A DNA stretch of 64,000 bases. Origin: Okamejei kenojei. Taxonomy: Eukaryota. Shown piece after piece: positions 6,562 through 42,600 of this stretch. The number at the start of each line of letters is the position of its first letter. The stretch's first letter is position 1. Below the pieces are notes generated by a model. It was given only the letters and a program-made list of their open reading frames with translations. It searched no databases and was not told the DNA's origin. Made by a program: the position numbers and the translations under genes. The DNA is taken from assembly GCA_035221665.1 (NCBI GenBank), contig CM069133.1:86056001-86120000 (forward strand), given 5' to 3'.

Positions 6562-6646
6562 GAGAAGAGGCACAGTTATTGAGACTGTCACTGATGCAGT
6601 TGTTTAACAACAAAGCACTTGAAACTCATAAAGATTGTATTAACAG
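6562..6646 (+). CDS. P450 exon (C-helix region: GEEAQLLR...KDCIN)
   Basis: Acceptor tttctcttgctgtatttag, donor AG|gtaagt, phase 2 matches the next exon. An alternative acceptor at 6539 (ttttcaccag) cannot be excluded. Confidence 0.8.
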
Positions 6647-12600: not shown

Positions 12601-15600
12601 TCCATAGTTTCCCTTTTAATATCTTGCACAATCTAAATTTATGGGGGTTTCACAATCCATTTCTCTAGGTGTTTTCCATAGGTAGCTGTTTTTGCTAACT
12701 TTTTCTATTTGGTGCCTTCTGCAAAATAGGTTTCTATATCCAAGGGGAAAGTGAGATTCTTGGAGGATGCATTTCAAACAAATGAGTCTGTGTTGAAAGT
12801 CCACTAAACAGTATGCATGTCATATAAGAGACTATGTATATTAGGTGCAAAAAAGCGAAGACCATCAACCCAAACCATCCTCTGTCATTCAAGTTAACAA
12901 TCCAATGTGGAATGGTTGATGACGGAGTTCATCAAATTTAACTTAGATATCCTTCAATTTAATTGCATCTTTAAACTTTTGGTAGCAAAATCTGATAAGG
13001 CGTATTGTAATATTTGTTGGTAACTTTTTCAACTTTGTTTTATTTTAAAATGTATATTTTTTGAAATTGTTTTATTTTAAAATGCATCCTTTTATTAATG
13101 GCATTTGTTTTGTTTAGAGTATGTACAAGGAATCTGAAGGACCTTGCACAAAGGTAAGAGCATACATTTATTTTTGAGCCAACAATAATTGATAGAATTT
13201 AATGCAGAGAAGTGTAAGGTGTTGCATTTTGGGATATCTAATAAGGGCAGGACCTACACAGTGAATGGTAGGCCTCTGGGGAGTGTTGTAGAGCAGAGGG
13301 ATCTCGGAGTGCAGGTGCATGGTTCCCTGAAGGTCGTGTCACAGGTAGATAAGGTGGTCAAAAAGGCTTTTGGCACATTGGCCTTCATCAGTCAGAGTAT
13401 AGAGTATAGAAGTTGGGAGGTCATGTTGAAGTTGTATAAGACGTTGGTGAGACCGCATTTAAAATATTGTGTTCAGTTCTGGGCACCAGGTTATAGGAAA
13501 GATATTGTCAATCTTGATAGTGTTCAGACGATTAACGAGGATGTTGCCAGGACTAGAGGGTGTGAACTATAGAGAGAGGTTGAGTAGGCTGGGTCTCTAT
13601 TCCTTGGTGCACAGGAGGTGCAGGCTTTAGAGACTAAGTGGCTGAGTCCTGCTATTTTTTGGGGATTTTGTGTTTATCAATCAAGTGCACTGCAGTAACT
13701 GCAATGTTTAACAGCACTTCCTAAACCTGTAACCTGTACCATGCGAGAAGATAAGGGAAACAAAATCATCGTAAACTTTTCCTCTAAGGCAGAGGCCAAT
13801 TTTGAGATGACAGTGCATCGCCATTCATTTATTACTTAGTCAGATACTTATATCTAACATAAATTTTGTAACCCTTTTGTACTTTACAAAATTTATTTTT
13901 CCCCAGGGCCTGTTTACAGGCTGAAGACTGAAGCTGGAGATTGCCACAAAAATGTTCCTTGAGCCTCTCTATACATTCTAACGGAAGCTGGACAAAATTA
14001 TAAGGGGTCTTAAGGGGTTGGACAGGCTAGATGCAGGAAGATTGTTCCCGATGTTGGGGAAGTCCAGAACAAGGGGTCACAATTTAAGGATAAGGGGGAT
14101 ATCTTTTAGGACCGAGATGAGAAAAACATTTTTCACACAGAGAGTGGTGAATCTCTGGAATTCTCTTCCACAGAAGGTAGTTGATGCCACTTCATTGGCT
14201 ATATTTAAGAGGGAGTTAGATGTGGTCCTTGTGGCTAAAGGGATCAGGGGGTATGGAGAGAAGGAAGGTACAGGATACTGAGTTGGATGATCAGCCATGA
14301 TCATGCCACTCAAGAGTATATGAAATGGCGCTGCAGGCTCGAAGGGCTGACTGGCCTGCTCCTGCACCTATTTTCTATGTTTCTATGTTTCTATAATGAA
14401 AAACAAAAAAGCACATAGTTCTGGAGTAACTCAGCAGGCCAGGCAGTACCTCTGGAGAACATACTTCGGGTCAGGACCTTTCGTCAGACTGTGATGGGGG
14501 GGAGAGAGGAGGGGCAGGCGAGTGATAGATGGATGCAGGTGAGGCAACCGGTTGGATTAAGGCCCAAGCTGAAAAGACAGGTGTGAGATAAGGATATAAG
14601 AGTTGCGAATTGTGAAGATAGAGGAAGGAATGTAGGAGCAGGGGTGGAATGGGTGCATTCAAGATATGGAACAAGGAAGAGAGGGGGGGTGGGTGGGGGG
14701 GGTTAGATAAGTTATCTAGAATTTGAGAATTAAATGTTGGGTTGTAAGACACCCATGGAATATGAAGTGCAGTTCCTCCAGTTTGCGTGTGCTTTCAATC
14801 AGACAATGGAGGAGGCCCAGGAAAGATAGGTCAGTATGGGAAGGGGGTTAAAATTGTTAGCAACCGGGCGATCCAGTAAGCCTTGGTAGAGAGAGCGTGT
14901 GTTTGGCGAAACAGTCGCATGGTCTATTCTTGATCTTGCCAATGTAAAGGAGACCCTATCAGGAACACCGGATACAGTAGATGAAGTTAGAGGGGGTGCA
15001 CTTGAACCTATGTCTCATCTACATGGACTGCTGTGATCACTGAATGGATGTGAGGGAAGAGAGATATAGGGACATCTATAGGGACAGATGTAGTGGCACA
15101 GCAGTAGGTTTGCTGCCTTACAGTGCCAGAGACCCGGGTTCAATCCTGACTATGGGCGCTGCCTGTACGAAGTTTGTACATTCTCCCTATGACCGCCTGG
15201 GTTTTTTCCGGGAGCTCCAGTTTCCTCCCACATTCCAGAGACTTCCTGGTTTGTAGTTTAATTGGTTTAGATAAAATTGTAAATTGTTCCTATGGCGTAG
15301 GATAGTGCTAGCGTGCGTGGATACTAGTCAATGCAGACTAGGTGGGCCAAAGGGCCTGTTTCCATGCTGTATCTCTAAACTAAACTAGACAGAAGGAGGT
15401 GTAGTTCAGGTAAGTGTGGGTCCCCTGTGACGGAGACATCAGGAAAGGGGAGAATTATGGTAAATTCAACTTCAGTTTGGGGTTAGGTTAATGTAGTAGG
15501 CAATGGAGTAGAACTCAGTCAGGTAAGTGGCTTCCAAGGTGGAACTGTGAAATATTGTGTAGGGGTGTTAGGCCTGTTGGCCCACGGGATAGTGGACTGT

Positions 15601-18600: not shown

Positions 18601-21600
18601 CTTTTGGTTCTGGACTGGACTGTACCATTGGATTTTGTTCTATTAACACTCCATAATATTTTAATTCACTTATGTGAAGATGTTATACAGTAGTGTGATA
18701 AGTATTCCAGTGAATTTAAAGGGAGAGTGGGAAATGGTGACCCAGTCATTTTAAACTGATTACAGGAAATGGGGCTGACTGAGTTTAAAGGAGCATGGGA
18801 AACGGTATCCAGTGGGCCAGACACTGAACCATCGGGAATTCCAGCCATTGGCAGATTGGATGTTGGAGTTTTATTGTAGTAGTTTAAATGTTAATCAAAG
18901 TTAATCATGTAAAAGTTGGTTGTCTAGTTGATAATGAGTAAGAAAGCCATTGGTTACACTGACACCTCGGAAGTTTTGATCAGTGATGTCAGTGTTGCAG
19001 TTGAATAAAGGGGACCATGGAGCCACGAAGGAGGAGCTGGCCAAAGTTGACTGGAAAGATACACTAGCAGGGATGACAGTAGAACAAAAATGGCAGGTAT
19101 TTCTAGGAATAATACAGAAGGTGCAGGATCAGTTCATTCCTAGGAGGAAGAAAGATTCCAAGGGGAGAAAGGGGCGACCATTCCTGGGCGTCAGGGACAG
19201 TATAAAAATTAAAGCGAAGAAGTACAACGTAACAAGCATGAGCAGGATGCAAGAGGATTGGGTAATGTTTAAAGAACAACAGAAGATAACGGGGAGAAAA
19301 ATGAGGTACGAAGGTAAGCTAGCCAAGAATATAAAGCAGGATAGTAAAAGCTTCTTTAAGTATGTGAAGAGGAAGAAATTAGTTAAGACCATAGTTGGAC
19401 CCTTGAAGACCAAAAAAAGTGAATTATTATGGGGAACCAGGAAAATGGCAGATGAGTTGCACAGGTACTTTGGATCTGTCTTCACTAAGGAGGACACAAA
19501 CTATCTTCCTGATATGTAGTAGTGGGCAGAAGATCTGGGTGACGGAGGAACTGAAGGAAATCTACATTTGCAGGAAATGGTGTTGGATAGACTGATGGGA
19601 CCAAAGGCTGATAAATCCCCAGGACCTGATGGTCTGCATCCCAGGGTACTTAAGGAAATGGCTCTAAAAATCGTGGATGCATTGGTGATATTTTTCCAAT
19701 GTTCTACAGACTCAGGATCAGTTCCTGTGGATTGGAGGGTAGCTAATGTTATCCCACTTTTTAAGAAAGACGGGAGAGAGAAAACAGGGAATTATAGACC
19801 AGTTCGCCTGACATCGGTGGTGGGGAAGATGCTGGAGTCAATTATAAAAGATGAAATAGCCGAACATTTGGATAGCAGTAACAGGAGTCAGCATGGATTT
19901 ACGAAGGGGAAATCATGCTTGACTAATATTCTGGAATTTTTTGAAGATGTAGCTACGAAAATGGACAAGGGAGAGCTAGTGGATGTAGTGTACCTGGACT
20001 TTCAGAAAGCATTTGATAAGGTCCCACATACGAGATTAGTGGGTAAAATGAGGGCACATGGTATTGGGGGTCGAGTGCTGACATGGATAGAGAAGTGGTT
20101 GGCAGACAGGAAACAAAGAGTAGGTATTAACGGGTCCCTTTCAGAATGGCAGGCAGTGACTAGTAGGGTACCGCAAGGCTCGGTGCTGGGACCGCAGCTA
20201 TTTACATTATACATCAATGATTTGGATGAAGGGATTCAAAGTAACTTTAGCAAATTTGCAGGATGACACTAAGCTGGGTGGCAGTGTTGAACTGTGAGGA
20301 GGATGCTATGAGATAAATGCAGGGGTGACATGAACAGGTTGGGGGAGTGGGCAGATGCATGGTAGATGAAGTTTAATGCAGATAAATGTTGAGGTTATCC
20401 ACTTTGGTATCAAAAACAGCAAGGCAGATTACGATCTAAACGCCATCAAGTTGGAGAAAAGGGGAAGTACAACGGGAATCTGGGGGTCCTTGTTCATCAG
20501 TCTATGAATGTAAGCATGCAGGTACAGCAGGCAGTGAAGAAAGCAAATGGCATGTTGGCCTTTGTAACAAGAGGAACCGAATATAGGAGCAAAGAGCTCC
20601 TTCTGCAGTTGTACAGAGCCCTAGTGAGACCGCACCTGGAGTATTGTGTGCAGTTTTGGTCCCCTAATTTGAGGAAGGACATTCTTGCTATTGAGGGAGT
20701 GCAGCGTAGGTTTATAATGTTAATTCCCTGGATGGCGGGACTGTCATATGCTGAGAGAATGGAGCAGCTGGGCTTGTACACTCTTGAGTTTAGAAGGATG
20801 AGAGGCGATCTTATTGAAACATATAAGATTGTCAAGGATTTGGACATGCTAGTGGCAGGAAACCTGTTCCTGATGTTGGGGGAGTTTAAGAATAAGGAGT
20901 AAGCCATTTAGAACGGAGACGAGGAAACGCATTTTCTCACAGAGAGTGGAGAGTGTGGAATTCTCTGCCACAGAGGACGGTGGGGCGGTGGAAAATAAGT
21001 GGATAGATAGATAAGGCACATGGGTTATTCTCCTTAATTGGCTAAAATGTAATTGCAGAGATCTTGTGCTAAAATGCCAGTCAAAAGTGCTGTATCCTGC
21101 ACACAATTATTCAAATTGGCTTTCGGTACCGACGGGCTATCTGCCGCCACACTGTACAATTCTCCAACCGGGCACTAAGATCCACCCTGGTTGCAATGCG
21201 CCGACACCAGCAGGACCTCGCATTGACTCTCCCGAAACTTCGGGCCTCACTCACCCAGACCTGCAACGGACCTCAACTACACTACATCCTCCGGAAGATC
21301 CACCGCTTCAATCAACAATTCCTATCCCACCTTACCTCCACCAAGGACCTGAAATTAGCCCGCCTCCAGGCCGTTCCAGCCACCGACAATCCCCAACTCG
21401 ACCGCCTGCAGGCCACGGGCCCCAACTCTGGCCCGAGCCGCCGGCCTGAGTCCCCAACGCCATCTTGTCCACGAGGAGCGCCTCCAGGACTCACCAGGAC
21501 GCCACCTTCACCGACCTCCACGCCGATGCTGCCGCCGACCTCCACCTGCCTACCGATGACGCCCAGCCCCGCTGCCTGCCCGGTAACTCTGTTTATCTCC

Positions 21601-24600
21601 CCCACCCCGATTCCACCGCCCATCACCAGCACAACGCGACTGCCGAACCTCGCCGCCCCCGGGACCACCTAACTCCATCGCCGCACCGGGCCCATCCAGC
21701 ATCGCCAGTGTACTGGGCCCGCCGAAGACCACAGCCGCACCCGCCTCACCTTGCATCGCCGCCGGACCGGGCCTACAGAGCATCGCCGCCGGACCGGGGC
21801 TCCCCGAACATGGCCGCCGCACCGCACCCCACTCATCTCGCCGCCTCACTGGTCGGACCGACCACCCGCCCACCGGGACCGCCAACACATCGCCCGCCGA
21901 CCACGATTCCACTGCCCGCGGACTCCTACCTTCTGGCCCGCCGACCCACGACTCTCCACCGCCCTCCAGCAGCCCCGCAGCCGTCGCCTCACCTGCAGAC
22001 TGGACTCTTACAGTGGGCCTGAAGCCTCCACGTTGCTAACTCCTCCCACCACACTGAGTCCTAGTGCCCGTCTCCCCAGCCCCAGTAACCTTAGTGGCTA
22101 TTCCACTGGATCTTCCCCATCCCCCCCCTACCATGTAACCCCTGCTCTTCCCCACCCACACCACAGCCCCATACCCCCCCACCCCCTGACCACCCTCCAC
22201 CCCCCACCACACAACGCTCCGTCCTCAGTTCTCTCACCTGCCTTCCTCCGGCCACAAACCCCCATCCTTGCCGCGTGTTCACCATCCCCCGGACCTCCCC
22301 CCTCTCCGACACCGAAACGGTCTGTCCTCAGCAGAGGTCTTACCTTTGTCCCCCTCCGTCCCCACCTCAATGAGTTCCGCGCCCACCACGACTTGGAGCT
22401 CTTCTACCGTCGCCTCGCCTCACAGCGTTCTTCCACGGGAAGAAGTCCTCGCCCCCCACTGATGATCCCTTTTCCTGTCTCCCACGTACCCCCTCCACCT
22501 GGACCCCCCCTCGTAGCCTTCCGGCTCTAGAACTATTTATCCACAACTGCCGTCGGGACATCAACCGCCTCGACTTCTCCACTCCCCTGTCTCACTCCAA
22601 TCTCTCCACCCCCGAACGTACTGCCATCGACTCACTCCGTAACAACCCAGACTGGGTTATCAAACCCGCCGACAAGGGAGGTGCCGTGGTAGTCTGGCGC
22701 ATCGACCTCTACAAAGCGGAGGCCATGCGCCAACTCTCGGACACCTCCTCCTACCTACCCCTGGACCATGACCCCACTGACGAACACCAGGCCACCATCT
22801 CGAGCAGCACATAACCAACTTCATCAGCTCCGGCTCCTTACCCCCCCGAGCCTCCGACCTCATCGTTTCCCAGCCCCGCACGGCCCGATTTTACCTTCTC
22901 CCAAAATCCACAAACCCGACTGCCCTGGCAGACCCATTGTCTCTGCCTGTTCGTGCCCCACCGAACACATTTCCACATACCTTGACGCCATCCTATCCCC
23001 CTTTGTTAAATCCCTCCCCACCTATGTTCAAGACACCTCAGACACTCTCCGTCGGCTCCGTGCATTCCATTCTCCAGGCCCCCATCCTCTCATCTTTACC
23101 ATGGACGTACAGTCACTCTACACCTCCATCCCCCACCAGGACGGTCTCAAAGCCCTCCGGTTCTTCCTCGACCAGAGGAGCAATCCATACCCGTCCACTG
23201 ACACCCTCTCCGCCTAGCGGAGTTGGTTCCTTACCCTCAATAACTTCTCTTTTGACTCCTCCCATTTCCTCCAAACACAAGGCGTAGCTATGGGCACACG
23301 CATGGGCCCCAGCTACGCTTGCCTCTTTGTTGGGTACGTCGAACAATCCTTGTTCTCGGCGTACCAGGGTCCCCATCCCCGACCTCTTACCTCCGTTACA
23401 TCGATGACTGCTTTGGTGTCACCTCCTGCACCCCCACAAACTGACTGACTTCATTCATTTCACCACCAACTTCCATCCGGCACTCAAATACACTTGGCCC
23501 ATTTCCGACATTTCCCTACCATTCCTTGACCTCACAATCTCTATTGCAGGTGATACACTCCTGACCGACATCCACTACAAAACCACTGACTCCCACAGCT
23601 ACCTGGACTACTCTTCCTCCCACCCTGCTTCCTGTAAGGACTCCATCCCCTATTCCCAATTCCTTCGTCTACGCCGCATCTGCTCCCAGGATGAGGCGTT
23701 TCACACCAGGTCATCAGAAATGGCCTCATTCTTCAGAGAACGGGGATTCCCTCCCCCACTATTTGATGAGGCTCGCACCAGGGTCTCCTCCATACCCCGC
23801 AAACACTGCCCTCTCTCCCCATTCCCCCACTCGCAAACAGGGCAGAGTCCCCCTGGTCCTCACCCTTTCACCCCACCAGCGGCAAATACAAACAGATAGT
23901 CCTCCGCCAGTTTCGCCACCTCCAACGTGACCCCTCCACCCGCCACATCTTCCCATCTCCCCCCCTGTCTGCCTTCCGCAAAGACCGCTCCCTCCGCGAC
24001 TCCCTTGTCAATTCTTCCCCTCCCCTCCCGCTCTACTGCTTCCCAGGCACTTTCCCTTGCAACCGCAAGAAATGCAACACTTGTCCCTTCACCTCCCCCC
24101 TCCACTCCTTTCAGGGGACCCAAGCAGTCCTTACAGGTCCGACAGAGGTTCACCTGCACCTCCTCCAACCTCATCTACTGCATCCGTTGCTCCAGATGCC
24201 AGAGATGATCTATATCGGTGAGACCAAGCGGAGGCTTGGCGATCGTTTCGCCGAACACCTCCGCTCGGTCCGCAAAAACCAACCGACCTCCCGGTCGCTC
24301 AGCACTTCAACTCCCCCTCCCATTCCGTATCCGACCTCTCGGTCCTGGGCCTCCTCCATGGCCAGAGTGAGCAACACCGCAAGTTGGAGGAACAGCACCT
24401 CATATTCCGCTTGGGGAGTTTGCATCCTTTGGGCTTGAACAATCGAATTTTCTCAATTCTGTTAACCCCTGCTGTCTCCTCCCCCTCCCACCTCTCCCTC
24501 AGCCCTCGGGCCCTGGCATTCCCTCTATCTCTATCTCCCTCCCCCACCCTAGTCGCACTAGCTTCTCATTTTCACACCACAAAGAGCTTACAATGGCTCG

Positions 24601-27600
24601 TTCCCTTTATCATCGATACTTTTTTGCATATCTTTCATTCATTGTTCTTTATCTCTCACATCACCGTCTATATCTCTCGTTTCCCTGATCCCTGACCAGT
24701 CTGAAGAAGGGTCTCGACCCGAAACGTCGCCTATCTCCTTCGCTCCTTAGATGCTGCTGCACCCGCTGAGTTTCTCCAGCATTTTGTGTAACCCCCTATT
24801 CAAATTGCCTCTTTAGAGGAAAGATATAATAACATTAAAGAAGGTGCGGAGGCGTGCAGGATTTGAGGATATAGACAGAGCTAGTGACGTTTGGTTCTGT
24901 GGAAAAGCTAGCATTAGGTAATTGTCTTTTCAAATCGTGGATGATGACTAAATATCAATTCAAGATCTATAAAATTATAAGATGGGACATCCATCTCTAA
25001 AACAATGTCCACGGCAGCACCTGTACATTGTAGCCTGGTTGGATGTACAAAGCTGTGGGCTAGGCTGCAACAGCCATCTGGTAAAGCAGAAGGGTCCACG
25101 AGCATTGATGGACCTTTGCCCTTCAGAACATAGAAACATAGAAAATAGGTGCAGGAGTAGGCCATTTGGCCTTTCAAGCCTGCACCGCCATTCAAAATGA
25201 TCATGGCTGATCATCCAACTCAGTATTCCTTACCTGCCTTCTCTCCATACCCCCTGATCCCTTTAGCCACAAGGGCCACATCTAACTCCCTCTTAAATAT
25301 AGCCAATGAACTGGCCTCAACTACCTTCTGTGGCAGATAATTCCAGAGATTCACCACTCTCTGTGTAAACATTTTTTTTTCTCATCTCGGTCCTAAATGA
25401 TTTCCCCCTTATCCTTAAACTGTGACCCCTTGTCCTGGACTTCCCCAACATCGGGAACACTCTTCCTGCATCTAGCCTGTCCAACCCCTTAAGAATTTTG
25501 TACGTTTCTATAAGATCCCCCCTCAATCTTCTAAATTCTAGCGAACTCACCCATACAGCCTTTTCCTGACAATTCGAGACGTTAAAAAGCTGTTGAATTT
25601 TTTTTTTTTTAATCAAAAAAATAAAAATAAAAATGTTTTAAAGACCTACAAATACATTTAAAACAATTGTTTGACCATAAGTGGGATTTAGGACTTTGTT
25701 GCAGCACATTTAAAGCAGAGGGATTGTATGCAAAATATATCTGGCACCTTGGCTCAGCACAACTGGACTCGACGCTGAGTCCGGCGGTAGTGTGGACGTG
25801 TATGTTTTCAGTGTCCTGGGATGTCACTGATTTTCATTCTGAAGTTTGTTGGCAGTGAAGTCAGGAATGATCTGATGCATGAAAAGGACCTCACAGGCAG
25901 CTTATCTTCAAATCCCGGCAGAAGGATGGGTTGGTCCAATGATTCTGATGTATTTTTCATTTCTTGCATGTTATTCAATTAATAGGATTGATCTCCACTC
26001 CTGTGAATGTGAAAGTGTCGGGTTGGTCTTCGGGGTTGTCTCAGGCTCTGGAAGCGAAAGAAAAACTGCTTAAAATCATCAATGAGCGTCTCCAGACTGT
26101 GAATGAAGGGTGAGCCCTGTCAGATAATCTTTTAACTGGATGAGGTAAATTTCCTCCTCTTTTGTCTTGAGCTGTGTTGTTGGCACTCGCTGTTCAAAGT
26201 AAAAAGTCTGCATTGGGAACCAACTCAAAGCTGTGAAAACTCTGTCTATGCCAGTCGCATTTACATGGTGAATCAGGGAATTTGGCCATGATGGTATAAC
26301 AGTGTATGTCTGTGACTCGCATCACTTCACAGCTACTGTTCATTGAAGCATTATCTTTAAAGCACCATGATGATAAAACCCGAATACTAGATAGACAGTG
26401 GTCGTCTACCAATTCCAATGTTACATTGTTAAATACCATGATGCTTAGTCTCCAATCAAAGGATGCAAGTCCTCATATTTGGAGATAATGTTTTTATGAT
26501 ATATATATATAAATGACCTGGATGTGAATGTGGATGGGTTGGTTAGTAAGTTTTCAGATGACACAGCTGGGAGAAGGTTGTCAAAGTATACAGTGGGTTA
26601 TAGATCAGCTACAGAAATGGGTGGTGAAATCACATATCAGGTTTAAATTGAGCAAGTATGAGGTGTTGCCTTTTTGGGAGGCAAAATGTAATGTGGAAAA
26701 TATACAATGAATGTGATGCCCCATAACAGCATTGATATTCAGAGGGATCTTGGCATCTAAGTCCATAACTCTCTGAAAATAACAATACATTGATAGAATG
26801 GTTAAGTAAGTAAGTTTATTGGCCAAGTATTCACATACAAGGAATTTGCATTGGTGCTCCGCCCACAAGTAACAACATGGCATACAGTGACAGTTACGAA
26901 TGACTCAGAAAACACTAAACATTAATAATAATAAAACATTAATGATAAAACACCATTGATCAAGCATGTGAACCAACAAAATACCAGATCAAAGGGAGGC
27001 TACAGATTTTTGGCTGTTGAGTAGAGCAACTACTCGTGGATAAAAACTGTTTTTATGTCTAGCTGTGGCACCTTTGACAGTCCGGAGTCGCCTTCCAGAG
27101 GGAAGTGATTCAAAGAGTTTGTGGCCAGGGTGAGAGGGGCAGAGATGATCTTGCCCGCTCGCTTCCTGGACCTTGCAGTGTACAGTTCATCAGTGGAGGG
27201 AAGGTTGCAGCCAATAACCTTCTCTGCTGATCGGATGATTCGCTGCAGCCTCCAGGTGTTGTGCTTGGTGGCTGAGCCAAACCAGACCATGATGGAGAAG
27301 GTGAGAACAGACTCTACGATGGCCGTGTAGGACCATCATTACCTGTGGCAGATTGTTCTTCCTCAGCTGTTGTAGGAAGTACAACCTCTGTTGTGGCTTT
27401 TTGACTGCGGAGTCGATGGTAGCCCCCCACTTAAAGTCCTTGGAGATGATGGTTCCCAGGAACTTAAAAGACTCCACAGATGTGACTGTAAAGAAGGAAA
27501 ATGGTGTGCTTGCCTTCACTGGTTGAGTCATTGAGTATAATAGTCAGGATGTCATGATGCAGTTTTATTCGTTAGGCCATATTTGGAGTAATGTATACAG

Positions 27601-30600
27601 TTCTGGTTGCCCCATTACAGGAAGGATATGGAGGCTTTGGAAAGGGTTCCAAGGATGTATACCAGAATTATACCTGGATTAGGGGATATTAGCTGCAGGG
27701 AGAGGTTAGGTTGCTTTCTCTGGAGTGCCAGAGGTTAAGGGGAGGCCTGTTAAAAGTATATAAAATTATGAGAGGCATAGATAGGTGAGACAGACAGAAC
27801 CTTTTTCCCAGGATAGAAATATCAAATAGTAGGGGACATTGCTTTAAGATGGTAGGGGCAAAGTTTATTGGAGATATGTGGGGAAAATGTATTTTACAGA
27901 GGGTGCTTAGTGCTTGGATCAAGCTGCTGTAGATGCTGGTGAAGGCAGATACGATTAAGAGTATTTAAGAGACATTTGGATAGGCAACATGCCTATGGAG
28001 GGAAATGGATTATGTGCAGGCCGATAACAGTTTGTCTTAGCATTATGTTCGGCACAGACATTGCAGGCCAAAGGGCCTGTTCCTGTGCTGTACTGTTCTA
28101 TGTTATCTTTATGTTTTTTTGCAACAGTTTAATACAAAAAAAAATCTTCTCAGTTGTCAAATCTCTTCTAATCTTAGGAAGCACAATTTTTAGGGTGAAC
28201 CTTTTTCATTTTCTATTTGGTAAGGATGTCTCAATTTCACTCCAAAATGGCAGCTGTCATTTGCTCTGTTCCAAATATCCCTCAAGGCTTTTATCTTTCC
28301 CATGGTCTGATGCCCAGAAGTAAAACTCCCGATGTGGACTGACAGTAATCACTCCATCTGAAACATCACTATCTTGCTCAGAACATGGCCATGTAATCCA
28401 GTGTTTTCAGCAGACATTTAATATTCAGTTCATTACTGGGTTGTGGGCATTTATTCTGGGCAGAAATGCATCAATAAGTAAAATGCACCTTACCTCACAT
28501 TTAAGAATCCATATAAATTCCACTCTAGATAATTCTTAGAATGAATAGATGGCATGTCTGGTCAGGGCCCTGCAGACTGATTGTAGTGTGGAGGTGGGCG
28601 GGAAGAGAGGTGAAGGCAGGATACTGGCAAGGGTATTGGTTATTAAGTATTGGTGAATATGTCTGGATTATCAACTTGTCAATAAACTTGTTTTGTAATT
28701 CATAATCAGCTTAATCTCCAAAATAAAGGACGTACCATTTCCAGAAAACACCTGTGCAGCACAGCACCTCCTACTCTTTATTTCAGCCCTCATTCCTAAG
28801 GCGCTTGCATCGCTGTTGACTTCCTTCACAATTGCGCTCGCTGGATCAAACCAGGTACCCTCACTATTTATAAGACATGGACTATTGTAGAATAAAATTG
28901 ACCTTTAGTTGTTATTATTGATCAGAGTGTGCATACTAATGGAAGTGTTGGTTTCAGTGTGCTTCCTTCCTCCTTTTGTAGCCTGAACATTTCTTTTGCA
29001 GAGTTTAATATTGCAAACTGTTTATTAATAGAATATTGACTGGCCTTGAGGGGGATACGACATATATTGCCTGAAGTAGATTCATATTGCCCGAGTCGAA
29101 GACGAGGGCAATATGGATCTAGTGAGGGCAATATATGTCGTATCTCCCGAAAGAGGACAGTCAATATTGTTATTATTACCCATATCAGACATCTAGAGGA
29201 AAATTTGAACATCTCAGCTCGGCGGACTTCCACGTAAAATTTAACCAAAATGGACGCGGCAGTCTTCCTGTCTGCCGTTTGAATATTCTAAATTTCCCAC
29301 GCAGCGTCACGTTGCCGTCACGTTGCCAAGTTCCCGGATGTGAGACCAGGGGAATATAAGACTATATTCCCCGCTGTTTTAACAGGTAAAGTCCATAGGC
29401 GTTCGCAAGAAAGGGGAATACAAGAAAATATTCCCCTGTTACCCCTGCTGGCAGTAAAAACGAAGGGAATACAATTTTGTAAAAGCATACCTCAGATGTG
29501 TGATATGGGTAATAATAATGTTTATTTGCCTGTCCCTTCTGTGTTTCTGTGCTACGTTGTACTGTTTCCTCAGATTGCCTCTTTCACAATCCCATAGCTT
29601 TGTCTCAGTGGCCGATATGTTGGTGTCATCCCAAACTTCCTGTGTCGGATAAATTGGCGCATTGAACTCTGTAAATTAATGAAAGTTCATTTAATAATTA
29701 TTCACGATTTACTGAGGAAACTAGTTAGAAATTAGTTTAAATATGCCTTCTATTCATGATCATTGCATTTGTGCCCTCTTTAATATCCTGATGTAATCTG
29801 TGAAATTACGGTTACTCACATATTTACATTGAGCTTCATCTGATAGTTGACATAACTTCACATAAAAAACAAAGATGTGGAAAATGTTCTGGAGGAAAAT
29901 ATGCTTTTATTCTTGGAAATGGAGGGGTTGAGGAAGGGAATTCCAGATCTTTGAGCCTCTGTAGCTGGAGGCTAATTGATTATTTGTAGTGCAAATTAAT
30001 GATATGCAATGTTCAAAATTGCCTGTTCAAAGAATACACCTGACCAACCAAAAACAAATCTACACCGGAATTAGGCCTAGAAAGAGATATATAAACACAT
30101 TCAATAATCATATGCTTGCACGGACTCAATCACCCCCCACAAGAAAGATTATGGAATTTATGGGGGCAATCAAATCCCTCTTCCCCTCTCTTCCNNNNNN
30201 NNNNNNNNNNNNNNNNNNNNNNNNNNNNNNNNNNNNNNNNNNNNNNNNNNNNNNNNNNNNNNNNNNNNNNNNNNNNNNNNNNNNNNNNNNNNNNNNNNNN
30301 NNNNNNNNNNNNNNNNNNNNNNNNNNNNNNNNNNNNNNNNNNNNNNNNNNNNNNNNNNNNNNNNNNNNNNNNNNNNNNNNNNNNNNNNNNNNNNNNNNTC
30401 TACCCTCCCCACCACTCCCCTCTCCCCTCCCCCTCCCCTCTCACCCCCCCGTCTCCTCCCCTCTCCATCTCCCCTCCCTCCCTCCTTCTCCCTCCCCCCT
30501 TCTCTCCCCTTCTCCCCCCTTCTCCCCTCCCCCTCCCCCCTCCCCCCCTCACCCCCCACTCCCCCTCCTCTCCCTCCCTCCCCTCTCCTCTCCCCCTCCC

Positions 30601-33600
30601 CTCTCTACCCCCTCTCTCGCCCTCTCTCTCCTCCTCTCCCCCCTCCCCTCTCCCCATCTCCCCTCCCCCTCATCCCTCCCCCTCTCCCTTCCCCCCACTC
30701 TTCCTCCCTCCCCCTCTCTCCTCCCCTCCCCTCTTAACCCCCCCTCTCCCCCCTCTCCTCACCCTCTCACCCCTCTCTCCCCCCCCTCGCTCCCCCCTCT
30801 CTCTCCCCCCTCCCCCTCTCCCTTGCTTCTCTCCTCCCCCCTCCCCCCTTCTCTCCCCATCTCTCCCTCCTCCCCTCTCCCCCTCCCTTCCCCCTTCTCC
30901 CCTCCCCCCTTCTCCCCTCCCCCCTCTCACTTCCCCCCCTCTCCCCAATCAGAATATACAGTGGCTTGCAAAAGTTTTCATACCCCTTGAACTATTCCAC
31001 ATTTTGTCACGTTATAACCACAAACGTAAATGTATTTTATTGGGATTTTATGTGATAGACCAACACAAAGTGGTGCATAATTGTGAAGTGGAAGCAAAAT
31101 GATACATGGTTTTCAAATTTTTTTACAAATAAAAAACTGAAAAGTGTGGCGTGCAAAAGTATTCAGCCCCCTTTACTCTGATATCCCTAAATAAATAAAG
31201 CAGGGTTAGGTTATAAAAAAATATCCCAAGCTTTGAACATCTCACGGAGCACTGTTCAATCCATCATCCGAAAATGGAAAGAGTATGGCACAACGCAAAC
31301 CTACCAAGACATGGCCGTCCACCTAAACTGACAGGCCGGGCAAGGGGAGGATTGATCAGAGAAGCAGCCAAGAGGCCCATGGTAACTCTGGAGGAGCTGC
31401 AGAGATCCACAGCTCAGGTGGGAGAATCTGTCCACAGGACAACTATTAGTCATGCACTCCACAAATCGGGCCTTTATGGAAGAGTGGCAAGAAGAAAGCC
31501 ATTGTTGAAACAAAGCCATAAGATGTCTTGTTTGCAGTTTGCCACAAGCCATGTGGGGGACACAGCAAACATGTGGAGGAAGGTGCTCTGGTCTGATGAG
31601 ACCAAAATTGAAGTTTTTGGCCTAAATGCAAAATGCTATGTGTGGCGGAAAACTAACACTGTTTACTATCACCCTGAACACACCATCCCCACTGTGAAAC
31701 ATGGTGGTGGCAGCATCATGCTGTGGGGATGCTTTTTCTTCAGCAGGGACAGGGAAGCTGGTCAGAGTTGATGGGAAGATGGATGGAGCCAAATACAGGG
31801 CAATCTTGGAAGAAAACCTGTTAGAGTCTGCAAAAGACTTGAGACTGGGTCGTTGTCCTGCTGGAGGTTCACCTTCCAGCAGGACAACGACCCTAAACAT
31901 ACAGCCAGAGCTACAATGGAATGGTTGAGATCAAAGCATATTCATGTGTTAGAATGGCCCAGTCAAAGTCCAGATCTAAATCCAATTGAGAATCTCTGGC
32001 AAGACTTGAAAATTGCTGTTCACAGACGCTCTCCATCCTATCTGACTGAGCTTGAGCTATTTTGCAAAGAAGAATGGGCAAAAATTTCAGTCTCTAGATG
32101 TGCCAAGCTGGTAGAGACATACCCCAAAAGACTTGCAGCTGTAATTGCAGCGAAAGGTGGTTCTACAAAGTATTGACTCAGGGGGGCAGAATACTTTTGT
32201 ACTCCACATTTTTCAGTTTTTTATTTGTAATAAAATGTGGAAACCATGTATCATTTTCCTTCCACTTCACAATTATGCACCACTTTGTGTTGGTCTATCA
32301 CATAAAATCCCAATAAAATACATTTACGTTTGTGGTTGTAATGTGACAAAATGTGGAAAAGTTCAAGGGGCATGAACATTTTGCAAGCCACTGTAACTAC
32401 TATTATTCTAGCTTTTAATTTCTTAGGTGTGTATTCTGAGCTGAGATGGTAGTCTGTTGGCTGCAATCTGAATTGGAAACATTTTGAAAGAAGATTGATG
32501 GTCAAATATGAATTTTTAACATGAACTTACAATAGGAATACATTTTGAGTGTATATTTGGGAAGAACATTTTGGAAAGTGTCATGACCTTTAATGGAATC
32601 ATGACCTTTCATGGGCCCATTTGATTTTTTTTGTATGTTTGACAACCTTCCAGTTTTAGACTTTTCCCCAAAATGCACATTGGAGGCTTTAGAGCAAGCA
32701 TGAAGGTTTTTGCCACAAGAGGGCCTCGGCAATGTACCAAAGTAGAAATGTATGTTCGCTTCAATGGTTGAAGCTGAATGTAGTTAGACCCAATAGCTCC
32801 CCTTTATATTCAAGCAGCTATTTTTGTTGATGTGTCTCTAGGGCCTGCAGATGGTCTCGTAGCTAATACTACGCATGGTTATCTGTGAAGATATTTTCAA
32901 TCAATATTTGAACAAAATGTTCTCAATGTTGCATATTGTACATACAGATGTAACTGTATACCAGGTACTACTATAACACGATAGTTGCATTCTTGTGAAA
33001 CCTCGCCCTATATAAAATTGTATTATAAAAACAATTGTGTCAATGAGGAATAAGGGTTAGGGGCTGGAGAGTTTCAGATTCTTACTTACTTAGCCTTAGT
33101 TCCTCCCACACTGTTGATTGCATTGGGCAGCAAGCTTTCGCCATTCTGTTCAATCTTGTGCGACATCTTCCACCCTCGATAGGTTAGCGTTTCGGGCTTC
33201 CAAGTCCTTCTGGAATGTTCGCCTCCATGTGAGTTTTGGTCGGCCTCTTTTCCTTCTTCCGTCAGGTTGCCATAGGGTCATTGGTATCTTAGGTGCATGT
33301 TCTGGTGACATTCTGAGTACATGCCCAGCAAATTTCATCCTGCGTACCTCTATGCCCTGGCTGTGAGGCTTTGTTGCTGTTTCCCGGTAGATCTCCTCTT
33401 TGTGATGTGGCCTCTGTAGCTAGTCTTCAGGATCTTCCTCGAGCAGAGTTGTTGGAATGCATCCAATTTCTTTTTCATCTTCACTTTGACTTTCCATGTC
33501 TTACTGGCATAGAGGGCTGTACGGAGGACTACGGACTGGAAGAGCTTGACTTTTAGCATCTTGGATATCCCGCCACTAGACCATTTTGGCTGCATTCTTC

Positions 33601-36600
33601 TGAAGACTGATGCAGCTTTACCAATTCGGGAGTTGATGTCGACCTCTACATCTCCATCTTGGACATGTTGAACATGTTGCCAAGATACGTAAATCTTGTG
33701 GCGTTTTCCACAGGTTTCCGATTGATTATCAGTTGGTCTATTGGCTGCTGGTCTCCAGTCTGCATGGTCTTAAGTCTTCTGGCAGCTGATCTTCAATCCA
33801 ACCTTTGATGCATTCTCCTCCAGTCATCACTTGAAGGGTGTGTCTCGACTCTGCTAGTAGTGCAATGTCATCAGCAAAATCTAGGTCTGTGAGGCATCTT
33901 CCAGTTCTCCACGGTATTCCAAAGTCACGTGTATTCATTGTCTTCCGCAAGGCATAGTCGATCGTGACAATAAACAGTAAGGGGGATAGAAGACAACCTT
34001 GTCTTACCCCTGTGACAATGTTAAAGAATTCTGCGTTTCCAGAATCAATCTTCACGCAACAACTGGATCCCGCATAAAGATTCTTGAAGATGTTGATGAA
34101 AGCCTCTGGTATGCCATACACTAAGAATTCGCCACAGGGGTGTCTGTACACTATCGAATGCCTTTTTGAAATCATAAAAAGTTTATTAGTATTGGCTTCT
34201 GAAATTCCGGGCATTGTTCTACCACATTTCGTAACATAAAGATCTGTTCGCTGCAGGATCTTTCCATGCGGAATCCTGCTTGTTCATCACAGGGTTTCAT
34301 ATCCAGACTCGCAGTAACAATTTTTTTTTCACACAAGAATTTCAAAAATAAACATCTTTTTAATAGCTATAACTTTTTGTTTAAAATATTAAAGGCTTTA
34401 TGTAACATAGAACATAGAAACATGGAGCAGCACATGGAAAATAGGTGCAGGAGTAGGCCATTCGACCCTTCGAGCCTGCTCCGCCATTCAATATGATCAT
34501 GGCTGATCATCCAACTCAGGATCCTGTACCTGCCTTCTCTCCATACCCTCTGATCCCTTTAGCCACAAGGGCCACATCTAACTCCCTCTTAAATATAGCC
34601 AACGAACTGGCCTCAACTACCTTCTGTGGCAGAGAATTCCACAGATTCACCACTCTCTGTGTGAAAAATGATTTTCTCATCTCGGTCCTAAAAGACTTCC
34701 CCCTTATCCTTAAACTGTGACCCCTTGTTCTGGAGTTCCCCAACATCGGGAACAATCTTCCTGCATCTAGCCTGTCCAACCCCTTAAGAATTTTGTAAGT
34801 CTCTATAAAATCCTCCCTCAATCTTCTAAATTCCAGCGAGTACAAGCCAAGTCTATCCAGTCTTTCTTCATATGGAAGTCCTGCCATCCCAGGAATCAGT
34901 CTGGTGAACCTTCTCTGTACTCCTTCTATGACAAGAATGTCTTTCCTCAGATTAGGAGACCAAAACTGTACGCAATACTCCAGGTGTGGCCTCACCAAGA
35001 CCCTGTGCAACTGCAGTAGAACCTCCCTGCTCTTGTACTCAAATCCTTTTGCTATGAATGCCAACATACCATTCGCTTTCTTCACAGCCTGCTGCACCTG
35101 CATGCCTACTTTCAATGACTGGTGTACCATGACACCCAGGTCTCGTTGCATCTCCCCTTTTCCTAATCGGTCACCATTGAGATAATAGTCTGTCCCTTCT
35201 GTTTTTGCCACCAAAGTGGATAACCTCACATTTATCCACATTATACTGCATCTGCCATGCATTTGCCCAACCTATCCAAGTCACCTTGCAGCCTCCTAGC
35301 ATCCTCCTCCCAGCTAACACTACCCCCCAGCTACGTGTCATCCGCAAACCTGGAGATGTTGCATTCAATTCCCTCATCCAGATCATTAATGTATATTGTA
35401 AATAGCTGGGGTCCCAGCAATGAGCCTTGCGGTACCCCACTAGTCACTGCCTGCCATTCTGAAAATGACCCGTTTACTCCTACTCTTTGCTTCCTGTCTG
35501 CCAGCCAGTTCTCTATCCACATCAATACTGAACCCCCAATACCATGTGTTTTAAGTTTGTATACTAATCTCTTATGTGGGACCTTGTCGAAAGCCTTCTG
35601 AAAGTCCTGATATACCACATCGTTTAATAAACATTGTTTAATAAAGTATCAGTGCTTACAAATCTGTTTTACTGCAGTTACGAATAAGAGTGTAATTGTG
35701 CCGCTCCGGTACATATGACAATAAAACTCTTTTGATGATTATTCAATAAATACTGGAATCGTGGAAGCTAAAAAATGGAGACATACTAATTGTGCTATCT
35801 TAGATCATATACAAATTACCAAAGAGAAGTAATGAGTGTTTTTAAAGTGAATTAAGATGGATAAATCCACCAGGGCTTGACCAAGTCCATCCTTGGACCT
35901 TGTTGGAAGCTAGAGAAGAATATGCAGAGGCCCTTTTTTACATAATCATAGGTGAAGTTTTGTAAGTCTGGAGGGTAGCAAATGTTGTACTGTTACTTAA
36001 AAAGGGCAACGCTGACAAGCCAGGGATCTATAGGCCGGACATCAGGGATCTGTAGGCCGGGCATCAGTGATTGGTCAGTTGTTGGAAGGAATTCTCAAGG
36101 CACAGGATCTACTGAGCACGGATAGGCATGGACTGATTAGGATTAGTCAGCATAGTTTGTGCATGAGAAGAGCTCACCAAGGGGACCGATAGGAACAAGG
36201 CAGTGGACGTTGTCTACATGGACCTTAGCAAGGCCTTCATGTGTGGTAGTGTGGTTGGTTGGACTGGCGAGCTAGCCAATTTTATTAAAATGTGGCACGA
36301 AGGAAACAGTCAAAGGGTTTTTCTGATTGGACACGTGTGGCCAGTAGAGCACTGCAATAGTCAGTACTGGGTCCACTGTTGCTTGTTGACTACATAACGA
36401 TTCAGGTGACAATGTAGTTAATGTCGTCAGTTGAGAAAGGATGTCTAAGTTTGTTGCAGGATCCAGATATGTTGGCAAGGGAGACCAAGGAATGGCCAGT
36501 GGAATTTAAGTCTGACAAGTGTGAGGTGTGGCACATCGGAATGCCAATACAAGGTAGGGCATGTACAGTAAATGGTAAAGCTCTAGAGAGTGTTGCAGGC

Positions 36601-39600: not shown

Positions 39601-42600
39601 AAAAACATAGAAACAAGGCAAGAGGAGTCAGACTTCCATCACTGTTCTGCACAAATAAATCAATTAACCTTACCCTTTCCGGGGTGCATTTCCCTCTCTC
39701 CCCCCTCCCAGGAATGCGGGCCGGCCCAGGTGCTCTGTGTCCCGCTGGGGTCCGGGGGAGGTGAGGGTCAGTGACCTGGGGGTCCGGGGGAGGTGAGGGA
39801 CAGTGACCCGGGAGTCGGGGAGCGGAGCCTTACCCCGAGATTCATCCCGCGGCTCCAGAGACGGCACCGACGCCCCCACTCACCTGGTTCTTTCCTGGCT
39901 CCGGGCCGGGTTAAAACTCCATGCGATGTAGACAGAGCGGCCGACGGACACAGAGCCGCCGGTGAGGGTGGGAGGTGTGAGTGGTGCCTCAGGGGGGGCA
40001 GTGCTGGGACCACCACCGTGTCTCACCTATCACACCATCTGCACGGGAATGTGAATGCGGGGGAGGCAGCATCTATTGAGCAATGGGCAAAAATGCTGGA
40101 GAAATGCTTGAGTCTGAAGAAGGGTCAAAGTCAGACATAGATGCTGCCTCACCTGCTGAGTTTGTCCAGCATTTTTGTCTACATTGCCTTTTTAAATAGT
40201 GTGCGATGATGGGCTTAAGCCAATTAAATTGCTTATTTTTTACGGGGAACCCACCGACAGAAAACTATTCTCATTGGTGAGTGTGGAGGAGTGTGACTTT
40301 ATTTATTTATTTGTATATTTTTTTAAATATTTTTTTGAGCATGAGAACTTCTGTCATCAGCGTGAGAGCGTGAGAATTTCCTCAAATGCGTTAGTTTCAC
40401 GCTCAATGCGTGTGAGTTGGCAGCCCTGCCAATTTACCTTCATACCTGTACGCCTTGGATGTCTTGAGATTTTTTTGTACAATTGAATAAAAGGTATTGA
40501 AGTTGACAGCAAGTTTGAGGTATTTTGCAAATATGCACCCTACGAATATTGAACAATGGACACAAACTTTGAAATAGTAGAGCGTTTTGCAGTGTCCTTG
40601 ACTATCTCCGGCTACCAATAGCAGGTGCTTTGTCTAAGTTCTATTTGTGCACCATGTTGATGTTCAAACTAGTTGCCATATTCACCTGTCTATTGAAAAT
40701 TGCTGTACTTCAATTCATCCAGTGTAATATCTTTTTGTGGTATAAAGAGAGCAATTCATTGTTTTTCCCATGACTCACTTCATCACCTTTAACTAGTAGA
40801 TACTAGTGACCAAATTAGATTTATTTTTTTCTTGAATGTGGATCTAAGCGATCTGAAGTCCACAAATACTTACTTACATTTACCTGAATATTAGTTTTTA
40901 AAATGTGAAATTAGGGATGAGTTAGACTAGGCGTGATTAGGTTTTAATCTGCACTGTGAGATTATGCCTGGTCATTAGTTTAGGTAATCCATGGTGTGAT
41001 GCCCCCAAAATAAATTTCTATGGATCAACACAGTATTAACACAACACACCATGTTACATGTTAGATGTATCAATATAAGCAGTTCAGCCATCATTATTAT
41101 GAAAAGATGTATGCGATAACAGAACACAGCAAAGTTTAGTACCCTTCTGCAGATCAGTCTCATGGAGTGCAAACATTGTCACAGTCAGTGAAAATCGCAG
41201 GATATAACAACAGAACAAATCATCACCATCAGGCAGCAGGATATATTTTATATTGAAATACTCTGTATCCAGGTCATTACACCCACTAAAATGAGTGATT
41301 ATTTTACTGCTAAGGCTGATTCCATTGCCTTTTTTAGATTTGTAATGCTTCCACATTAAGCATTACATTGAAATATTATCTGCATGATTCTGGGTTTAGC
41401 TGGGATAATTCGTTAAAATATTGAATGTAGCCACTGTATTAAGGATTTACATAAATTAACAGGCTTGTTGCCAAGATGAATGACTGCTGAATGTGTGCTT
41501 TGACTGCTGCATGAGAGCACTGATACCAAACTGGCAGTTGCAACATTGTAATTCATATTGCAATTTGCACTTGAATTGGGTAAGGTTGCAATGCATGCAT
41601 TGGAGCTTGCTGTATCTAATCCCCAGTGTTTGAGATTATCATGATGAAATAATGAATATTACAATGGGCACCACACCATTTTTATTGTATTTTGACACGG
41701 ATGCTCAGGATCTCCACTTTAAATCAGGTTCATGTTCGTAAACGTGCACAAGAAAATGAAGCGTACTTGGACCATGTACTACTAGAGGTGGAAAGACTTT
41801 GGCCTTCCTTTATTGGTGGACGAAGAGTTGCAAAGCAGGTACAATTTATTCTTTGTGTAGCTGAAGTTAAATAGTACTGATGATGGACATAACAGAAACA
41901 TTTCCATGGAACCTTATACCAATGGGGACCATTCAGCCAATTTTGCTCAGATGGTTCTTTGAAATTGTCATGTTAGCATTGACATTTGTGTACTCTTTTA
42001 CAATTCTCACACTGTTATTCAATAACAACCTCAACCATGCTGTCTCTACAACTTCCCACAATTCTATGTATTTTCATTTTCTTTGCCATATCAGTGGTGG
42101 CCATATTTGCTTTACTTGGAACCTAAATTCTGAAACTTTATTTCCCAAACCTCTCCTATGTTGTGCTTCTCTCCTATGCTGTGCTCTTTGATCAGATTTA
42201 TGGTAATTTGAAATATCTTCTTCATTGACTTATTTTAACAGCTTTTGCCTAATATACCTGTGAACAATCTGTGGAAATGTTACTGTGTTGGTGGCCATTA
42301 AGTCTTTACGGGATTATGCTGCATGTTAACTGGCTTCAGCTTTACCTACAGAACAATAATATCAGGGTTGCCAACATTGGGTGAGAGTTGGGAGTGAGTA
42401 GTTGTGAGAGGCCAAGCCAGAGAGAGCATAGCAACCAAGGGGGGAGGGGGGTGCGAGGTGGATGTCCCCCCTCCCATGGGTACGGAGCTTTTGCATATTT
42501 CAGCTTGAAATTGTGCAATCTGGTGCATACTATAGCTCACTGCACAACTGGTACTACTCCTGACCCTGACTCACGTTGCATACCTTCTCTCATTCCTGAC

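What the first reader, a model, noticed from the sequence alone, without database searches (positions are those of the whole stretch)
28710..28854. P450 lacking the canonical I-helix oxygen-activation motif
Seen: the I helix reads [16 protein letters not shown] where typical P450s have (A/G)GxD/ETT, so the acid-alcohol pair is replaced by Pro-Lys-Ala, while ExxR and PERW are intact and all exons are open. Known: P450s that lack the conserved Thr (CYP74, CYP8A1, CYP5A1) are often peroxide isomerases or use substrate-assisted catalysis. Inference: an orphan, possibly non-monooxygenase P450, tentatively CYP16, a family reported in non-mammalian vertebrates and invertebrates for which I know no substrate.
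Basis: partly seen in the sequence, partly recalled or inferred. Interest (0 to 1): 0.7.

Follow-up and report, generated by a model that had tools for sequence, protein, structure and literature searches.

The report
Anchorless fish P450 with fixed lysine
This is a real, spliced exon of a skate gene for CYP16, an ancient cytochrome P450 of unknown function that lacks the usual membrane anchor and carries a fixed lysine where most P450s have their oxygen-activating residues, so it likely runs on peroxides rather than oxygen plus a reductase.

Summary
Observation confirmed, family call confirmed, mechanism still inferred. The 145-nt exon is spliced between its neighbours in 4 of 4 RNA-type runs laid. 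It belongs to an intact 425-aa single-copy P450 whose heme-cysteine exon lies 3.5 kb beyond the window. It is CYP16: 41% identical to the Nematostella gene named CYP16D1, which has the same I-helix. The acid-alcohol pair is replaced by Lys-Ala, with a short insertion. Lys252 is invariant in 100 of 100 aligned members from sharks to a choanoflagellate and algae; Pro is not (84 of 100). This 10-residue stretch is the most conserved in the protein. Also found: no N-terminal membrane anchor, few proximal basic residues, a shortened J-K segment, and two tandem alternative exons encoding the B' substrate helix in cartilaginous fish. Best reading (0.45): a soluble, reductase-independent, peroxide-using enzyme acting on an anionic lipid. 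Main rival: substrate-assisted monooxygenase (0.28). It is not a CYP74 member. No activity was found in the papers I could search; three key CYP16 papers were not held.

The parts
6562..6646 (+). Exon 3, C helix (heme-binding Arg101; W and flanking basic residues absent). Upstream of the window lie exon 1 (G000:C3:86044040-86044241; no transmembrane anchor, in-frame TAG before the ATG) and the alternative 78-nt B'-helix exons 2a (C3:86047305-86047382) and 2b (C3:86047501-86047578)
13118..13153 (+). Exon 4, D helix
15789..15928 (+). Exon 5, E and F helices (Tyr141 and Lys/Arg145 conserved; HWHG)
25986..26109 (+). Exon 6, F-G loop and G helix
   Evidence: joined to exon 7
28710..28854 (+). Exon 7 (the finding): H and I helices with FISALIPKA
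28798..28803 (+). Codons for Lys252 (acid slot, invariant) and Ala253 (Thr slot)
41728..41838 (+). Exon 8, shortened J segment, K helix ExxR and SRS-5
47708..47835 (+). Exon 9, beta strands and meander (PERW). Downstream of the window lie exon 10 (G000:C3:86123549-86123636; heme loop FGNGSRNCIG with Cys368, canonical length) and exon 11 (C3:86144317-86144457; SRS-6 and stop)

Best explanation
The exon encodes the rebuilt I helix of skate CYP16, an anchorless P450 with an intact heme cysteine, which likely works as a soluble enzyme without a reductase and likely splits the O-O bond of a peroxide (a fatty-acid hydro- or endoperoxide, or H2O2 paired with a carboxylate substrate) instead of activating O2. 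Shown: intact expressed gene; Lys-Ala in the acid-alcohol slots; no anchor; shortened J-K segment; two alternative B' exons. Inferred: ferric heme binds the peroxide directly, so the proton relay of the acid-alcohol pair is not needed. Lys252, with other conserved basic residues (145, 302, 403, 409), would hold the substrate's anion or steer a proton. Swapping the B' exon would change substrate or product. The substrate is unknown; an oxylipin is my best guess.
For: Acid and alcohol lost together: slot pairs are KA 80, KS 9, KG 4, KT 4, KC 2, KV 1 of 100, never D/E. Lys252 is one of three columns invariant in all 100 rows, with ExxR; residues 243-252 are the best-conserved 10-mer, above the heme loop (0.80 vs 0.71), so the site is under strong constraint. 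The AF2 model of the 93%-identical Rhinoraja protein (pLDDT 92.6) breaks the I helix at 246-248. Plant allene oxide synthase, a peroxide isomerase, reads GGMKI here (PMC13049297, passage and section 37), which by my hand alignment puts Lys in the acid slot and a nonpolar residue in the Thr slot; that section also says O-O homolysis can occur without the axial Asn, as in thromboxane synthase. CYP74s need neither O2 nor redox partners (PMC10813956, passages). Natural peroxygenases replace the pair, and CYP152 uses a substrate carboxylate held by an Arg (PMC11842817, passages). Anchor-like N-termini in only 2 of 88 rows. No basic residue at four C-helix slots in 36 of 36 vertebrate rows against 1-3 in 7 of 7 CYP120-like comparators; acid-slot to ExxR spacing 36-38 in 71 of 100 rows against 52-53 in 6 of 7 comparators. 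That these surfaces dock the reductase is recalled.
Against: The CYP74 hallmarks are absent: heme loop of canonical length in 93 of 97 rows, and Asn near the groove in only 5 of 100. The nearest solved structure is CYP120A1 bound to retinoic acid, which keeps AGHET (TM 0.82; Z 41.2, rmsd 2.6, 399 aligned). 33 of 56 non-vertebrate rows keep at least one C-helix basic residue and 13 of 100 keep Ser/Thr in the alcohol slot. A CYP8B-like gene of this genome lacks the Thr, in a family recalled as monooxygenases. The 100 rows were picked after I saw the motif, so invariance is partly by selection; see Tried and rejected.
Confidence: 0.45

Rival explanations
1. A soluble O2/NAD(P)H monooxygenase that uses a substrate group or ordered water in place of the acid-alcohol pair, likely on a retinoid, sterol or terpenoid acid, fed by a soluble or transient redox partner.
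For: Closest structures are CYP120A1 and CYP90B1; the family sits beside CYP120/CYP26-like proteins (PMC8110760 passage). Heme loop canonical. CYP8B-like and CYP26-like genes of this genome also have altered I-helix motifs. CYP120A1 itself has no anchor (alignment).
Against: Charge reversal at the acid slot in all 100 rows, plus an insertion and bulky residues in the groove; C-helix basics absent in 36 of 36 vertebrates; no reductase or ferredoxin domain in the 10 longer hits scanned (2 of them are multi-P450 proteins outside the group).
Confidence: 0.28
2. A P450nor-like enzyme that binds NAD(P)H or another small anion directly in a basic distal pocket and carries out a reduction (for example of NO), with the alternative B' helix choosing the cofactor.
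For: Soluble eukaryotic P450 of about 420 aa with several conserved basic residues (145, 252, 302, 403, 409) and an exchangeable B' helix. Recalled, not from a call: CYP55 is soluble, binds NADH through a basic cluster, and its B' helix sets NADH/NADPH preference.
Against: CYP55 is recalled to keep the Thr, which CYP16 lacks. Whether the basic residues face the pocket is not shown. Pure analogy.
Confidence: 0.12
3. A non-catalytic heme-thiolate protein (ligand carrier or gas/redox sensor), possibly with Lys252 as sixth iron ligand after the helix shift.
For: Catalytic pair lost, Lys absolutely kept, helix break next to it. Recalled: a Lys engineered at BM3 position 264 ligates the iron.
Against: Lys aligns three to four residues past the heme-facing Ala slot. 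Two maintained versions of the substrate-recognition exon suggest substrate choice.
Confidence: 0.1
4. A decayed or mis-spliced P450 (pseudogene, wrong exon).
For: Loss of a canonical motif, taken alone.
Against: Open 425-codon frame with canonical splice sites, spliced contigs in 3 studies, motif in 120 of 120 listed homologues.
Confidence: 0.01

Closest known systems
CYP16 family, clan 16 (Nematostella CYP16D1; teleost CYP16A1)
   Same: Same I-helix motif with ALxPKA, anchorless start, about 420-440 aa; 41% identity to the Nematostella gene product and 56% to the medaka homologue; one copy found in this genome.
   Different: Nothing defining. Cartilaginous fish have a second B' exon, seen in no bony-fish row examined. 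Function of the family is stated as unknown (PMC11184212 passage).
CYP120A1 (cyanobacterial, retinoic-acid-bound structure) and CYP26/CYP90-type P450s
   Same: Nearest fold; shared SRS-5 PPxxGGxR; no anchor in CYP120A1.
   Different: CYP120A1 keeps AGHET, C-helix basics and the long J-K segment; about 22-24% identity.
CYP74 clan (allene oxide synthase and relatives)
   Same: Acid-alcohol pair lost; in plant AOS a Lys plus nonpolar residue occupies those slots (GGMKI; register aligned by hand).
   Different: No nine-residue heme-loop insertion, no conserved Asn; CYP16 has an I-helix insertion with Pro.
CYP8A1 (prostacyclin synthase) and CYP5A1 (thromboxane synthase)
   Same: Animal P450s without the Thr that isomerise an endoperoxide.
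   Different: They have GN or EI in the slots, are recalled as membrane-anchored, and lie in other clans.
CYP152 and CYP255 peroxygenases
   Same: Soluble, I-helix pair replaced; CYP152 holds a substrate carboxylate on a basic residue.
   Different: Bacterial; CYP255 has Gln-Glu; the CYP152 Arg is recalled to sit earlier in the helix than Lys252; 16% identity to CYP152N1.
CYP4F3 alternative exons
   Same: A splice choice inside a P450 that switches substrate (PMC7434440 passage).
   Different: Other clan, ordinary monooxygenase; for CYP16 a switch of substrate is only predicted.

Membership tests
Cytochrome P450 superfamily | P450 fold | tested here: met
   AF2 model of the 93%-identical orthologue, pLDDT 92.6; TM 0.82 to CYP120A1; Z 41.2, rmsd 2.6, 399 aligned
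Cytochrome P450 superfamily | Heme-loop Cys (FxxGxRxCxG), ExxR, meander Arg | tested here: met
   All present; Cys in 97 of 97 rows covering the column, ExxR in 100 of 100
Cytochrome P450 superfamily | Bound heme with 450-nm CO spectrum | not testable with these tools
   needs purified protein
CYP16 (clan 16) | At least 40% identity to a named member (threshold recalled) | tested here: met
   168 of 410 (41%) to P0335, whose first ~345 residues match the CYP16D1 row of PMC8110760 supplement 1 by eye; P0335 has a wrong heme-exon stretch, which lowers the figure
CYP16 (clan 16) | Groups with named CYP16 apart from CYP26/CYP120 | tested here: met
   Animal rows with CYP16D1 form one group (92) inside a 38-row Lys group (98*) in FastTree; without I-helix columns 2 changes, 1 forced
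CYP16 (clan 16) | Synteny with named vertebrate CYP16A1 | not tested
   only a FAM110 N-terminal domain was found nearby; no reference gene order on hand
Canonical microsomal monooxygenase | (A/G)Gx(D/E)T acid-alcohol pair | tested here: not met
   Lys-Ala; no D/E in 100 of 100 rows
Canonical microsomal monooxygenase | N-terminal transmembrane anchor | tested here: not met
   top hydropathy 0.53 in the first 60 residues, stop codon before the ATG, 2 of 88 family rows anchor-like
CYP74 clan | Nine-residue insertion in the heme-binding loop | tested here: not met
   F-to-C span of 8 in 93 of 97 rows; feature from PMC10813956
CYP74 clan | I-helix Asn above the heme (AOS Asn321) | tested here: not met
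   Asn anywhere in 244-251 in 5 of 100 rows, absent in the skate
CYP74 clan | Hydroperoxide turnover without O2 or reductase | not testable with these tools
   needs an assay
CYP152 peroxygenases | Basic I-helix residue that holds the substrate carboxylate over the heme | tested here: inconclusive
   invariant Lys present, but its orientation could not be read from the model (one search gives no coordinates)

The most novel reading that the evidence does not exclude
CYP16 is the animal branch of a eukaryote-wide, soluble, reductase-free P450 lineage with lysine-based peroxide chemistry. It makes an unknown oxylipin-type signal in aquatic animals, was lost on the way to land vertebrates, and in sharks and rays switches substrate or product by exchanging a duplicated B'-helix exon.
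Probability: 0.3. Interest if true: 0.85.

Novelty: new variant of a known kind. Interest (0 to 1): 0.62.

Why it matters
CYP16 is a named vertebrate P450 family whose function is stated as unknown. A lysine fixed from sharks to algae in the slot where most P450s need an acid, plus loss of the anchor, predicts chemistry other than ordinary oxygen activation and names the residue to mutate. A 48-kDa protein without an anchor should be easy to express, so the question is directly testable. If it uses peroxides it adds a branch to animal oxylipin biology; the alternative B' exons would be a rare splice-controlled substrate switch. Database names mislead here (P450 120, 26A1/B1-like, 3A56, beta-amyrin oxidase).

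Tried and rejected
Prokaryotic or viral members, sought for operon clues: 0 of 29 pattern matches in genome contigs and 0 of 27 in viral contigs were relatives; the pattern is strict, so distant members could be missed. Neighbours in 6 of 25 metagenome loci gave unrelated genes (PPR, tetraspanin, mitochondrial carrier, OATP). In the skate flanks 120 of 505 non-repetitive open stretches were scanned, giving FAM110_N, transposon domains and one sub-cut-off zinc-finger hit. dN/dS was not computed: no orthologous coding DNA was reachable. Single-sequence fold of an exon-2b isoform failed (pLDDT 33), so the two B' versions were not compared in 3D. The exon alone finds nothing in PDB sequences. No CYP74 chain stood among the 50 rows; that does not exclude likeness. 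ESM Atlas gave only generic P450 clusters. Selection check on the Lys count: of 74 representatives of 300-620 aa, 17 were left out of the 100-row alignment; 8 carry the Lys motif (partial or irregular models), 1 is truncated before it, and 8 are CYP120- or CYP3-like with an acid, which fall outside the group in both trees. With the I-helix-to-K-helix columns removed, one long-branch Lys row moved next to the CYP8B-like row, so one origin is likely but not proven for the most distant rows. Strict mutual exclusion of exons 2a/2b was rejected: among 120 database proteins there are 68 A, 4 B, 2 both, 7 neither, 3 other, 36 not covered. Use of 2a was not shown in the four runs; one run's contigs break at these junctions in a way that fits a skip-both form. 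Tetrapod absence is only a hint: lists were cut at 120 of 180, 221 and 142 rows. No complex was predicted, since no native redox partner sequence was in hand. Literature: searches for CYP16, CYP16A1 (7), 'clan 16' with P450 (35) and ALIPK (31; 20 of 108 listed, none on a P450 by title) showed no description of this motif or of an activity; Nelson 2013, Dermauw 2020 and one further review were not held, Nelson 2011 was not looked up, and any of them may already note the motif or the missing anchor.

Full report
Observation. Window 28710-28854 is bounded by AG and GT and encodes the H and I helices of a cytochrome P450, reading [16 protein letters not shown]. The window is G000:C3:86056001-86120000 of a 2.76-Gb genome. 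The closest database protein is from the skate Rhinoraja longicauda (94% over the exon; 397 of 425 over the protein), so the genome is skate-like. Four runs from three studies, guessed by the tool to be RNA, were laid on the exon. All four cover it exactly, with loose ends that match the ends of the flanking exons, and the differences inside the motif are synonymous.

Gene. Searching with orthologues placed seven coding exons in the window and the rest outside: exon 1 about 12 kb upstream, two 78-nt alternative exons about 8.5 kb upstream, the heme-cysteine exon 3.5 kb past the window end and the last exon 24 kb past it. With either alternative exon the frame is 425 codons without internal stops, and all junctions are AG/GT. 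Only this locus matched at over 60% identity among 28 candidates scored. The heme loop is FGNGSRNCIG, ExxR is EVER and the meander is PERW.

Family. Supplement 1 of PMC8110760 (one row seen, cut at 400 of 425 letters) gives Nematostella CYP16D1 with HLLLFVSALVPKALAS and an anchorless start. The database product of that gene (P0335) is 41% identical to the skate protein despite a wrong heme-exon stretch. Oryzias curvinotus CYP16A1 is listed at 438 aa, the length of the medaka homologue found here. In a 49-row tree the skate protein groups with sharks, bony fish and deuterostomes, and with CYP16D1 among the animal rows; the 38 Lys-bearing rows form one side of a branch (98*) against CYP120-, CYP26-, CYP1-, CYP3- and CYP8B-like rows (those labels are mine, from recalled motifs). 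Without the I-helix columns one long-branch row moved. Named members include echinoderms, a hemichordate, molluscs, an annelid, cnidarians, the choanoflagellate Savillea, the green alga Mesostigma and the red alga Eucheuma; a further eukprot row labelled 'Clim' I read from recall as Corallochytrium. No tetrapod appeared in the listed rows of three searches, each cut at 120. Papers state that CYP16 is lost in mammals and absent from zebrafish (PMC5751882 passage) and that its function is unknown (PMC11184212 passages; section 3.7, does not mention it).

What is odd in the I helix. Alignments to CYP120A1, to a CYP120-like protein and to canonical P450s of this genome put Lys252 in the acid slot and Ala253 in the Thr slot, with 0-2 extra residues just upstream. 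In 100 aligned members (23-83% identity) the only invariant columns are Lys252 and the ExxR pair; Pro251 is kept in 84. The slot pairs are KA 80, KS 9, KG 4, KT 4, KC 2, KV 1. Residues 243-252 are the most conserved 10-mer (0.80; heme loop 0.71). The rows were chosen after I had seen the motif; the 17 of 74 full-size representatives left out are accounted for under Tried and rejected. An AF2 model of the Rhinoraja protein (pLDDT 92.6, pTM 0.91) has a P450 fold with the I helix broken at 246-248, nearest to CYP120A1.

(1) No membrane anchor: the Pro-Gly motif is at residue 9, a stop precedes the ATG in frame, and 2 of 88 family rows have an anchor-like start. (2) The proximal side is changed: no basic residue at four C-helix slots in 36 of 36 vertebrate rows (33 of 56 other rows keep at least one), and the acid-slot-to-ExxR distance is about 15 residues shorter than in 6 of 7 CYP120-like comparators. 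Their role in reductase docking is recalled. (3) Other basic residues are conserved at 145, 302, 403 and 409; some are shared with CYP120A1. (4) Two tandem 78-nt exons encode alternative B' helices, 7 of 26 residues identical. Exon 2a scores closer to 29 of 29 bony-fish rows, exon 2b to 16 of 22 non-vertebrate rows. The 2b form was seen only in cartilaginous-fish proteins (6 of 120). Three of four runs join exon 1 to 2b, skipping 2a, in contigs of 1568-1600 nt whose length fits the whole message; use of 2a was not shown there.

Mechanism. The acid-alcohol pair delivers protons for O2 activation, and natural peroxygenases replace it (PMC11842817 passages). Plant allene oxide synthase reads GGMKI at this place, and O-O homolysis does not need the axial Asn (PMC13049297 passages and section 37); CYP74s use neither O2 nor a redox partner (PMC10813956 passages). 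Loss of the pair, the anchor and the proximal basics together, with a Lys held as tightly as ExxR, makes a soluble peroxide-using enzyme on an anionic lipid my best reading (0.45). Against it: no CYP74 loop insertion or Asn, nearest structures are hydroxylases, and a CYP8B-like gene here lacks the Thr in a family I recall as monooxygenases, so a substrate-assisted monooxygenase keeps 0.28. A direct NAD(P)H-binding reductase (0.12) and a non-catalytic heme protein (0.10) rest on recalled analogies. A pseudogene is excluded.

Novelty. The gene is a member of a named orphan family. I found no description of the Lys motif, the missing anchor, the range outside animals or the alternative exons in the searches named under Tried and rejected, but the main CYP16 papers were not held and may mention some of this. 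PMC8110760 names CYP20 as its example of a degenerate I helix; the motif tables seen do not cover Nematostella. Verdict: real, CYP16, a new active-site variant of a known enzyme class, function untested; interest 0.62.

Noticed in passing
G000:C3:86047305-86047578 (L006:1305-1578), upstream of the window: Tandem duplicated 78-nt exons for the B' helix, 118 nt apart; one bony-fish-like, one closer to invertebrates, which suggests an old duplication kept in cartilaginous fish.
   Followed up: partly
window 31217-32173 (+), and about 58800-59500: Tc1/mariner-type transposase in pieces with frame changes; a second partial copy near 59 kb (type recalled from the translation).
   Followed up: no
window 10484-11820 (-), 18980-20900 (+), 34519-35648 (-), 21000-24450 (+): Broken LINE-type reverse transcriptase copies, and a GC-rich retroelement with reverse-transcriptase- and GIY-YIG-like text at 21-24 kb (types recalled).
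   Followed up: no
window 38283-38714 (-): 144-codon open stretch that resembles a retrotransposon gag-like protein (recalled likeness).
   Followed up: no
L014:717-1298 (G000:C3:85966717-85967298): FAM110 N-terminal domain about 77 kb upstream of exon 1; a possible synteny marker for CYP16.
   Followed up: partly
L003:4455-4457 (G000:C3:86144455-86144457): The stop codon stands where Rhinoraja has Gln, so this skate protein lacks a 17-residue low-confidence tail that is still readable in frame after the stop.
   Followed up: partly
P0198 (749 aa): A distant Lys-motif member with an alpha/beta hydrolase domain behind it; single case, fusion or gene-call artefact not resolved.
   Followed up: no
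L029 (G000:C1:190952000-190961000) and L024 (C2:28795500-28798500): A CYP26-like gene reads AAFATT (no acid) and a CYP8B-like gene ASQGNT in the I helix (labels recalled).
   Followed up: partly
P0190, P0223: CYP120-like proteins that keep the acid but have Leu in the Thr slot.
   Followed up: no
window 30170-30950: Long C/T-rich low-complexity tract around an N stretch.
   Followed up: no
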